A stretch of DNA of 64,000 nucleotides from Acinetobacter phage Ab1-TPeters, in the sequence record PP763253.1, one strand, 5' to 3'. Positions within the stretch are counted from its first letter, which is position 1, and every line of letters starts with the position of its first letter. The position numbers were made by a program, and so were the translations under genes. The notes beneath the pieces are model-generated. The model did no database searches and was not told where the DNA came from. It saw only the letters and a list, made by a program, of their open reading frames with translations. Positions 18,395 to 18,754 of this stretch are shown here, one piece after another.

Positions 18395-18754
18395 TAATCC
18401 CAAGCAGAGTCCGCCCAGATTAGAAATGATTTGGACAAAAACTTCCTTAATTGCTGGAACGTCCTTAATGGATAATCAGCAGCTGGGTTCAATTATGAAC
18501 AGAGTTCAACGACTATCGAAAGCCGATTTAGAGTGGGGACAATCTAAATTGAAGCAAGTAGAGTACAGCCAAGCGGTAGGTTGTTACGTGGAATGGCGTA
18601 ACAATAATTCCTTTAAATGGAAACAGGAAGACCTAATCACTGTAGACCACAGTGTAAGGATATGAGATAGTCTCAACGTTCTATAGTAATATAGAGCAGT
18701 GTTTATAGCCAATAAACACGGTCGTAAGCTAGCGATTTACGATGAAGATAATTG
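18395..18754 (+). ncRNA. group I self-splicing intron (ORF-less, IA-like) interrupting the beta-prime catalytic motif
   Basis: P is AATTGCTGGAA (18449-59) and Q is AATCAGCAGC (18474-83); these form P4. R is GTTCAACGACTA (18504-15) and S is AGATAGTCTC (18665-74); these form P7. The internal guide GTCCGC (18409-14) pairs with the exon end GCGGAU, including a U.G pair at the splice site. The intron ends in G, immediately before exon 2. Confidence 0.85.

What the first reader, a model, noticed from the sequence alone, without database searches (positions are those of the whole stretch)
18395..18754. ORF-less group I intron inserted exactly inside the NADFDGDQM catalytic motif of a phage RNA polymerase beta-prime gene
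Seen in sequence: the beta-prime ORF ends ...PMLCSPFNAD followed by TAA at 18395. Translation resumes 360 nt later, in another frame and without a start codon, as FDGDQMAIHLILSCQAMDEVEF.... Joining the two recreates the universal Mg-binding motif NADFDGDQM.

The intervening 360 nt contains the four conserved group I elements in the correct order. P is AATTGCTGGAA, Q is AATCAGCAGC (P-Q give the P4 pairing UGCUG/CAGCA), R is GTTCAACGACTA and S is AGATAGTCTC (R-S give the P7 pairing GACUA/UAGUC).

An internal guide sequence GUCCGC lies 15 nt into the intron. It pairs perfectly with the last six exon nucleotides GCGGAU and gives the canonical U.G pair at the 5' splice site. The intron ends in G.

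No homing-endonuclease ORF is present. Introns in phage genes usually sit in highly conserved catalytic sequence, but one splitting the RNAP aspartate triad is unusual. It would make production of the phage RNAP dependent on splicing.
Basis: partly seen in the sequence, partly recalled or inferred. Interest (0 to 1): 0.85.

Follow-up and report, generated by a model that had tools for sequence, protein, structure and literature searches.

The report
Group I intron splitting phage RNAP
A 360-base self-splicing (group I) intron with no gene of its own interrupts a phage RNA-polymerase subunit gene exactly inside its catalytic motif; it looks real and intact, but it is one more case of a known habit of viral introns, not a new kind of element.

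Summary
The beta'N gene (17081-18394) stops at ...PFNAD+TAA. 360 nt later (18755-18928) the reading frame continues FDGDQMAIH.... Joining the two gives a 495-aa protein colinear with intron-less beta'N subunits such as Ralstonia phage RP13's.

The 360 nt score 66 bits against Rfam Intron_gpI (cut-off 50). They fold far better than shuffles (z = -4.8). They show P1-P10, a U.G pair at the 5' splice site, a terminal G, and the P7.1/P7.2 block of subgroup IA2. No endonuclease ORF is present.

Homologous introns keep every helix through compensatory changes. The guide sequence tracks the Ala-codon wobble base of its own exon: GCG/GUCCGC, GCA/GUCUGC, GCU/GUCAGC.

It is not as unusual as claimed. Bacillus phages AR9/PBS1 carry a related intron two codons downstream (DYD|GD) in their virion beta'N gene. 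PhiPA3 and giant viruses also have RNAP-gene introns.

I found the exact NAD|xDGD site occupied in four other lineages. One is the cultured Vibrio phage 150E35-1, where the intron is unannotated. Another is an Rpb1-type gene.

Verdict: new member of a known kind. Splicing has not been tested experimentally.

The parts
17081..18394 (+). Exon 1 of the phage RNAP beta'N subunit gene (438 codons, ends ...PFNAD; last base U of GAU is the 5' splice-site U)
   Evidence: Precomputed Pfam PF04997 and PF00623 on the identical protein P0001. 38-39% identity over full length to the beta'N of phages RP13, EP_H11 and IME392.
18395..18754 (+). ORF-less group I intron, 360 nt, IA2-like
   Evidence: Rfam RF00028 at 66 bits against GA 50, E = 1.6e-14. 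z = -4.81. 12 in-frame stops. Homologous introns found.
18755..18928 (+). Exon 2 (FDGDQMAIHL...LELTLGE, 57 codons plus stop), in the same frame as exon 1
   Evidence: The spliced 495-aa product ends where RP13's 517-aa beta'N ends.
18389..18414 (+). P1: exon GCGGAU (18389-94) pairs with the internal guide sequence GUCCGC (18409-14), with U.G at the splice site. P10 5' strand CAGA (18405-08) pairs with exon 2 UUUG (18755-58).
   Evidence: P1 is 6/6 canonical and P10 is 4 bp. In relatives the IGS and the P10 strand change together with the exon bases.
18415..18434 (+). P2 hairpin CCAGAUU / GAUUUGG
   Evidence: Recovered by unconstrained MFE folding.
18442..18447 (+). P3 5' strand CUUCCU, which pairs with AGGAAG at 18625-18630
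   Evidence: The long-range pair is recovered by MFE folding. Four different fully complementary P3 versions occur at the same register in homologues.
18449..18483 (+). P4-P5 domain: P element; P4 UGCUGG (18452-57) / UCAGCA (18476-81); P5 GUCC (18461-64) / GGAU (18470-73); Q element
18483..18502 (+). P6 short hairpin. This is the position where relatives carry the endonuclease ORF.
   Evidence: The ORFs of L003, L264 and L540 start just after the P6 5' strand.
18504..18515 (+). R element. P7 5' strand GACUA (18511-15) pairs with UAGUC at 18668-72.
   Evidence: P7 is invariant in all 8 homologues.
18516..18624 (+). P7.1 (18527-48), linker with GUA, P7.2 (18564-78), an extra hairpin (18580-18605) closed by AGG/CCU, then GAAAC. 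This is the IA2-type peripheral block between P7 and P3'.
   Evidence: It is 76-80% identical to the same block of the AR9 and phiR1-37 introns. The IA2 criterion is taken from PMC3428280.
18625..18630 (+). P3 3' strand AGGAAG
18638..18654 (+). P8 hairpin CACUGU / ACAGUG
18665..18674 (+). S element with the P7 3' strand UAGUC (18668-72)
18679..18754 (+). P9 (18679-96, GUAA loop), P9.1 (18699-719), P9.2 (18722-42, loop with UAGCGA), and the terminal G at 18754
   Evidence: The same 3' domain with a (G)UAGCGA loop occurs in AR9, PBS1, L180 and L003.

Best explanation
18395-18754 is an intact, ORF-less group I self-splicing intron of the phage IA2 type. It sits between the first Asp codon and the next codon (NAD|FDGDQM) of the catalytic loop of a phage split beta'N RNA-polymerase subunit gene.

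Proposed mechanism (inferred):
1. The gene is transcribed as one pre-mRNA.
2. The guide sequence GUCCGC pairs with the exon end GCGGAU to form P1, with U.G at the splice site.
3. An external guanosine bound in P7 attacks after U18394.
4. P10 (CAGA/UUUG) and the terminal G18754 position the 3' splice site.
5. The exons are ligated into a 495-codon mRNA.
6. The UAA at intron nt 1-3 stops ribosomes that reach unspliced RNA, so only spliced mRNA yields a polymerase subunit with a complete aspartate triad.

The intron is most likely the endonuclease-less descendant of a mobile intron. Relatives at the same site carry a 204-250-aa ORF in P6, which drove insertion into this conserved DNA.

What is shown: sequence anatomy, Rfam model match, covariation, and colinearity of the joined exons. 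What is inferred: splicing in vivo, the effect of the UAA, and the homing history.
For: 1. Rfam Intron_gpI scores 66 bits against a cut-off of 50, E = 1.6e-14, and is the only Rfam hit in the window.
2. z = -4.81 against shuffles. Unconstrained folding recovers P2, long-range P3, P4, P5, P6, P7.1, P8, P9, P9.1 and P9.2.
3. The joined exons give NADFDGDQM and a protein colinear to its end with RP13's 517-aa beta'N. Eleven intron-less relatives (P0003-P0013) cover 98-99% of the spliced query; the four whose sequences I retrieved read NAD[FY]DGD without interruption.
4. In 8 homologous introns every helix is fully canonical. P3, P5, P7.1, P8 and P9 differ in sequence between them.
5. In five same-site introns plus AR9, P1 is 6/6 or 7/7 canonical with U.G, the last base is G, and P10 is 4-6 bp. 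The IGS follows the exon's Ala wobble base: GCG/GUCCGC, GCA/GUCUGC, GCU/GUCAGC.
6. Same-site introns in L003, L264 and Vibrio phage 150E35-1 carry mutually homologous ORFs (E = 9e-30 to 5e-49). This fits a homing origin.
7. P7.1 and P7.2 joined by a GUA-containing linker matches the published IA2 criterion.
Against: - There is no RNA evidence and no in-vitro test.
- P7.2 is only 3 bp plus a mismatch. J8/7 carries a 3-nt insertion relative to the family consensus (GGAUAUGAGAUAGUC), although endonuclease-bearing L003 shares it.
- The only other copy of this exact locus (Logan SRR28813070, L004) may come from the same sample, so conservation of this particular intron over time is not shown.
- The ORFs in relatives have no significant Pfam domain (DUF4428 below cut-off, T5orf172 E = 0.037). 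'Homing endonuclease' is therefore an inference.
Confidence: 0.88

Rival explanations
1. The gene is truly split at the active site. The 360 nt is an intergenic spacer or a dead intron relic, and two polypeptides are made, one ending NAD and one starting at TTG 18752. They assemble non-covalently.
For: A TTG lies in frame one codon upstream of exon 2. Phage multisubunit RNAP genes are often split into separate N and C subunits. GenBank annotates the two halves as separate CDSs in Vibrio phage 150E35-1.
Against: - The split would fall inside the Mg-binding loop. No homologue has a protein terminus there.
- Only GAAGA lies 2 nt upstream of the TTG (reading), which is poor spacing for a ribosome-binding site.
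- The spacer has a complete ribozyme core with an exon-matched guide sequence that covaries with the exons in relatives. Nothing would maintain that if splicing did not happen.
Confidence: 0.04
2. The intron is real but splicing-defective, so the beta'N gene is a pseudogene in a defective or degrading phage genome.
For: No endonuclease ORF is present. P7.2 is weak and J8/7 is unusual. No expression data exist.
Against: Both exons are open and conserved. All core helices are canonical. The J8/7 variant is shared with L003, which keeps its ORF. The surrounding 64 kb is densely coding phage DNA.
Confidence: 0.06
3. The match is a chance resemblance or an assembly chimera that joins an intron from elsewhere into the gene.
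For: Only one independent assembly of the same sequence was found.
Against: E = 1.6e-14. The guide sequence is complementary to this gene's own exon ends. The insertion is exactly 3n and restores the motif. The same site is occupied in four other lineages.
Confidence: 0.01

Closest known systems
Group I intron 2 of Bacillus phage AR9/PBS1 g145 (virion RNAP beta'N subunit; GenBank KU878088 118211..123163, annotated as a 3-part join)
   Same: Among deposited phage genomes it is the best nucleotide match to the window intron: 68-70% identity over intron nt 53-306, and 76% in the P7.1-P7.2 block. It also interrupts the catalytic Asp loop of a phage beta'N gene. It scores 86.7 bits against Rfam. 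It has the same P9.2 loop and the same ...GAAGAUnnUUG 3' end.
   Different: It is inserted 6 nt further downstream (GGDYD|GDT against NAD|FDGDQM), with its own guide sequence GUCGUAG. It is 1889 nt long and carries a 495-aa endonuclease ORF between the 5' splice site and the guide sequence. The host gene is only very distantly related and also holds a group II intron (PMC12350094).
Same-site introns found here: L003 (JGI 3300045337), L264 (IMG/VR 3300020048_000043) and Vibrio phage 150E35-1 (OX241562.1, unannotated)
   Same: They use the identical insertion point NAD|[F/Y/H]DGD and have an IA2-type core. The 5' part (IGS to P6) is 73% identical to the window intron for L003 and 150E35-1 (not computed for L264). 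L003 shares the J8/7 variant GGAUAUGAGAUAGUC.
   Different: They are 872-1022 nt long and carry a 204-250-aa ORF in P6. They lack the extra hairpin after P7.2. The host genes are 48%, 31% and about 28% identical to the window's.
PhiPA3 gp210 intron in the vRNAP beta-subunit gene (Birkholz et al. 2024, PMC11620839)
   Same: It is a group I intron in a phage multisubunit RNAP gene, placed right after conserved catalytic-region Asp residues.
   Different: It lies in the beta subunit, not beta'. It carries an HNH endonuclease with a demonstrated role in phage competition. The window intron has no ORF.
Classical phage IA2 introns (T4 td/nrdB/sunY, Twort, SPO1/Pf-WMP3 DNA polymerase introns)
   Same: They share the same ribozyme subgroup features (P7.1 and P7.2 linked by GUA; PMC3428280). 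They share the habit of inserting into catalytic motifs of essential genes (PMC12908238). ORF-less variants are known (my own knowledge).
   Different: The host gene and the insertion site differ.
Group I introns in giant-virus RNAP largest-subunit genes (Bodo saltans virus polr2a, PMC5871332), and the Rpb1-type locus L257/L313 found here
   Same: They are self-splicing introns in the homologous subunit. L257 is inserted at exactly NAD|FDGDEM, with guide sequence GUCAGC paired to GCUGAU.
   Different: The host gene is of the eukaryotic-virus type. The L257 ribozyme lacks the P7.1/P7.2 block, so it belongs to another subgroup and was probably an independent insertion (reading).

Membership tests
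Group I intron (Rfam RF00028) | Covariance-model score at or above the curated gathering score | tested here: met
   66 bits against 50, E = 1.6e-14, full model 1-253.
Group I intron (Rfam RF00028) | Conserved core: P3-P8 and P4-P6 domains with P, Q, R, S elements in order, including the P3/P7 pseudoknot | tested here: met
   All helices are located and canonical. P3, P5, P8 and P9 vary with compensation in 8 homologues.
Group I intron (Rfam RF00028) | P1 formed by an internal guide sequence and the 5' exon end, with a U.G wobble at the splice site | tested here: met
   GCGGAU/GUCCGC is 6/6. The IGS covaries with the exon wobble base in five same-site introns.
Group I intron (Rfam RF00028) | Terminal G (omega G) and P10 pairing with the 3' exon | tested here: met
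   G18754. CAGA/UUUG is 4 bp. P10 is 4-6 bp with different sequences in relatives.
Group I intron (Rfam RF00028) | Guanosine-dependent self-splicing | not testable with these tools
   Needs an in-vitro transcription and splicing assay, or RNA-seq.
Subgroup IA2 | P7.1 and P7.2 helices between P7 and P3', linked by a G-U-A sequence (criterion as stated in PMC3428280) | tested here: met
   P7.1 at 18527-48, a linker ...AAGUAGAGUA..., and P7.2 at 18564-78, plus an extra hairpin at 18580-605. No subgroup-specific covariance model was run.
Mobile (homing) group I intron | Intron-encoded homing endonuclease ORF | tested here: not met
   No ORF with a domain hit lies in 18395-18754. No homologue of the relatives' intron ORF is present anywhere in the 64 kb.
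Phage split beta'N RNAP subunit (host gene) | RNA_pol_Rpb1_1/2 domains, the NADFDGD loop, and an end shortly after the double-psi beta-barrel | tested here: met
   PF04997 and PF00623. The spliced 495 aa are colinear with RP13's 517 aa and EP_H11's 522 aa. The split position after the DPBB is described in PMC7598289.

The most novel reading that the evidence does not exclude
The phosphodiester between NAD and xDGD in the universal Mg-binding loop of multisubunit RNAPs may be a recurrent, cross-lineage intron landing site. At least three ribozyme types appear to have invaded it: the window type with the extra P7.2 hairpin, the L003/Vibrio type with an ORF in P6, and a non-IA type in an Rpb1-like gene. 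An uncharacterised endonuclease family (Zn-finger plus a weak T5orf172-like region) that reads the near-universal NADFDGD-coding DNA may drive this. Such an enzyme could cut the RNAP genes of very distant co-infecting viruses. This ORF-less copy would then act as an 'immunised' allele protecting its phage's polymerase gene from that cleavage.
Probability: 0.25. Interest if true: 0.55.

Novelty: new member of a known kind. Interest (0 to 1): 0.3.

Why it matters
In practical terms, gene callers and GenBank records report this subunit as a truncated protein plus an orphan fragment. Examples are the 438-aa P0001 and the two CDSs in Vibrio phage 150E35-1. Recognising the intron restores a complete catalytic subunit.

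Biologically, it adds the beta' aspartate-triad loop to the list of active sites colonised by phage introns. The same nucleotide position is used in several distant viral RNAP genes, which makes it a good system for studying endonuclease-driven competition of the kind shown for PhiPA3. It does not reveal a new mechanism.

Tried and rejected
- Megablast of 17000-19400 against deposited phages found nothing, so the phage itself is not in the collection.
- The search for related loci with the spliced protein in IMG/VR returned only intron-less relatives at about 30% identity, because its pattern ADFDGDQM spans the junction.
- The P4/Q pattern AATTGCTGG..ATAATCAGCAGC occurs in more than 120 IMG/VR loci, so this is a widespread intron type. 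None of the returned loci was in a beta' gene.
- The S-element pattern gave 11 loci, none in beta'.
- The MAFFT alignment of 8 intron cores (A1) mis-aligned the variable helices. I therefore did not use the count of structure pairs or RNAalifold on it and checked helices strand by strand instead.
- The metagenome and genome scans with the 3'-end/exon-2 pattern were cut at 120 rows. One extra locus (L313) turned up in metagenomes and none in bacterial or archaeal genomes, so absence from cells is not established.
- Pfam and PHROGs gave no significant domain for the relatives' intron ORFs.
- The AR9 genome paper (Lavysh 2016) is not held in the library. I derived the AR9 exon boundaries myself from the sequence.
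- Read-through or ribosomal bypass is rejected: there are 12 in-frame stops over 360 nt.

Full report
**1. The observation**

The + strand ORF 17081..18397 encodes 438 residues ending ...KLPPMLCSPFNAD. GAT lies at 18392-18394 and an in-frame TAA at 18395-18397. From 18755 the sequence reads FDGDQMAIHLILSCQAMDEVEFIRVQNN...LELTLGE and stops at 18926-18928.

The gap is exactly 360 nt. Joining 17081-18394 to 18755-18928 gives a 495-codon ORF containing NADFDGDQM.

One statement is wrong. Exon 2 is not in another frame. 360 = 3 x 120, and both exons share a frame, separated by 12 in-frame stop codons.

**2. Is it more than chance?**

- Rfam's Intron_gpI model matches 18385-18696 over its full length at 66 bits (curated cut-off 50, E = 1.6e-14). 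It is the only family above threshold in the 64 kb, and the only other match up to E = 1 is a sub-threshold S15 leader hit (E = 0.48).
- The 360 nt fold to -101 kcal/mol against -75.8 +/- 5.3 for dinucleotide shuffles, z = -4.81.
- The unconstrained fold already contains P2, the long-range P3 (18442-47 with 18625-30), P4, P5, P6, P7.1, P8, P9, P9.1 and P9.2.
- P1 and P7 are missed, as expected: P3/P7 is a pseudoknot and P1 needs the exon.

**3. The host gene**

- Exon 1 carries RNA_pol_Rpb1_1 and Rpb1_2 domains.
- It is 38-39% identical over its whole length to the beta' N-terminal subunits of Ralstonia phage RP13 and Escherichia phages EP_H11 and IME392.
- Those genes are 517-522 codons, uninterrupted, and end about 60 residues after NADFDGD, exactly as the spliced product here does.
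- Of the 13 closest protein clusters, 11 cover 98-99% of the spliced query. The four whose sequences I retrieved read NAD[FY]DGD without a break.
- The other two clusters stop at NAD. One is the window's own exon 1 from a Logan assembly; the other is P0002.
- The window is otherwise ordinary myovirus DNA: tail sheath, family A DNA polymerase, NAD-dependent ligase, ribonucleotide reductase.

**4. Comparative evidence for the ribozyme**

P0002 (48% identical) lies on JGI contig L003. There an 872-nt insertion (3493-4364) follows NAD and is followed by YDGDTLAVH. A blastn search of deposited phages with the intron gave PBS1/AR9 as the best hit, followed by introns in the phiR1-37 DNA polymerase and the Staphylococcus phage Machias terminase.

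In eight homologous introns I located every helix strand. All are fully canonical at equivalent positions.
- P4 and P7 are invariant.
- P3 occurs as CUUCCU/AGGAAG (window), CUCCUU/GGGGAG, CCCUUU/GGAGGG and CUCAAU/AUUGAG, in a register fixed by invariant flanks.
- P5, P7.1, P8 and P9 also differ between introns while staying paired.

The block between P7 and P3' (P7.1, a GUA-containing linker, P7.2) is the published hallmark of subgroup IA2 (PMC3428280).

**5. Splice sites**

For the window and five other introns, P1 is 6/6 or 7/7 canonical with U.G at the cleavage site. The intron ends in G, and a 4-6 bp P10 joins the bases just 5' of the guide sequence to the start of the 3' exon.

The guide sequence follows the silent third base of the Ala codon in its own exon:

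| Intron | Exon end | Guide sequence |
|---|---|---|
| window | GCG GAU | GUCCGC |
| L003, L264 | GCA GAU | GUCUGC |
| Vibrio phage 150E35-1, L257 | GCU GAU | GUCAGC |

P10 changes likewise:

| Intron | P10 (exon 2 / intron) |
|---|---|
| window | UUUG / CAGA |
| L003 | UACGAU / AUCGUG |
| Vibrio phage 150E35-1 | CAUGA / UCAUG |
| L257 | UUCG / CGAA |

This is direct support for the proposed junctions.

**6. ORF-less state**

Nothing in 18395-18754 encodes a recognisable protein. L003, L264 and Vibrio phage 150E35-1 carry a 204-, 237- and 250-aa ORF starting in the P6 loop and running into the R element. These ORFs are homologous to each other (35-43% identity, E = 9e-30 to 5e-49).

They have only sub-threshold domain hints: DUF4428, T5orf172 and an HNH PHROG. 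No homologue exists in the window. The window intron has a 20-nt hairpin where those ORFs sit. I infer that it descends from a mobile intron and has lost its endonuclease gene.

**7. How unusual is it?**

AR9/PBS1 gene g145 (virion RNAP beta'N) is annotated as a three-part join. My reading of the sequence is as follows.
- Exon 2 ends GGA GAC UAC GAU (GGDYD).
- Exon 3 begins GGU GAU ACA (GDTVSL).
- The 1889 nt between them contain a 495-aa endonuclease ORF and a core scoring 86.7 bits.
- That intron therefore splits the same catalytic loop two codons downstream.
- Its P7.1-P7.2 block is 76% identical to the window's.

[quoted passage not shown] PhiPA3 has a group I intron with an HNH endonuclease after conserved Asp residues of a vRNAP beta gene (PMC11620839). 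Bodo saltans virus and its relatives have several in polr2a and polr2b (PMC5871332). A recent review states the general rule that such introns sit in active sites of essential genes (PMC12908238).

**8. The same site elsewhere**

I searched with a pattern combining the P9.2 loop, the intron end and [F/Y]DGD, and with tblastn using a junction-spanning peptide. These found the identical NAD| position occupied in four other lineages.
- L003 (described above).
- L264, a 122-kb IMG/VR contig with a beta' about 28% identical to the window's; its intron is 1022 nt.
- Vibrio phage 150E35-1, a cultured phage. GenBank lists two RNAP CDSs and a hypothetical protein where an unannotated 1011-nt intron lies.
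- L257/L313, whose joined exons match yeast Rpb1 residues 432-588 in one stretch (E = 3e-59). Its 437-nt intron scores 80.9 bits but lacks the P7.1/P7.2 block.

The first 120 hits in bacterial and archaeal genomes contained no RNAP example.

**9. Verdict**

The element is, with high confidence, a functional-looking ORF-less IA2 group I intron at NAD|FDGDQM of a phage beta'N gene. Making the catalytic subunit should depend on splicing. Splicing, the role of the UAA at the intron start, and the homing history are inferences.

It is a new member of a known kind. The exact site and the phage lineage are new; the class of event is well documented. The modest extra interest lies in the recurrence of this precise site across very distant viral RNAP genes.

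Noticed in passing
L540 (Vibrio phage 150E35-1, OX241562.1) 2882-3892: A cultured phage has an unannotated 1011-nt group I intron at the same NAD| site. GenBank lists the two exons as separate RNAP CDSs (CAH9016147, CAH9016208) and the intron ORF as a hypothetical protein (CAH9016168). The spliced motif reads NADHDGDTMAVH. Exon 2 continues for about 800 codons, so beta' is not split there.
   Followed up: partly
L264 (IMGVR_UViG_3300020048_000043) 3551-4036, minus strand: A group II intron (RF02004 at 89 bits, RF00029 at 62 bits) lies about 1.2 kb downstream of the group I intron on the same strand, probably in the same beta' gene. This mirrors AR9 g145, which holds both a group II and a group I intron.
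   Followed up: no
L313 56-1335 against L257 1551-1987: Two metagenomic copies of the same Rpb1-type gene have identical exons and an identical intron 3' end. The intron is 1280 nt in one and 437 nt in the other, and they diverge right after intron nt 4. This looks like a presence/absence polymorphism of an inserted ORF.
   Followed up: no
window 18395-18754 compared with L003, L540, AR9 and phiR1-37 introns: The similarity is mosaic. The 5' part (IGS to P6) is closest to the same-site introns L003 and Vibrio phage 150E35-1 (73%). The P7.1-P7.2 block is closest to the AR9 and phiR1-37 introns (76-80% against about 50%). This could mean recombination between introns, or loss of the extra hairpin in the L003 lineage.
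   Followed up: partly
L003 3614-4228; L264 ORF; L540 2998-3750: The intron ORFs form a family with no significant Pfam domain. They have N-terminal Cys-rich motifs (DUF4428 at 4e-5, below cut-off) and a weak T5orf172-like stretch. This may be an uncharacterised homing endonuclease type.
   Followed up: partly
window 23449-24390 and 19960-20691: The phage encodes an actin-like ALP_N/MreB-like protein and a small PolX-like protein (HHH_8 plus DNA_pol_B_thumb), alongside its family A polymerase (precomputed Pfam on L004).
   Followed up: no
window 18939-19292: The 117-aa ORF directly downstream of exon 2 has only a weak hit to an unknown-function PHROG (phrog_27118, E = 8e-4). No other RNAP subunit gene was found among the ten largest ORFs of the window.
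   Followed up: partly
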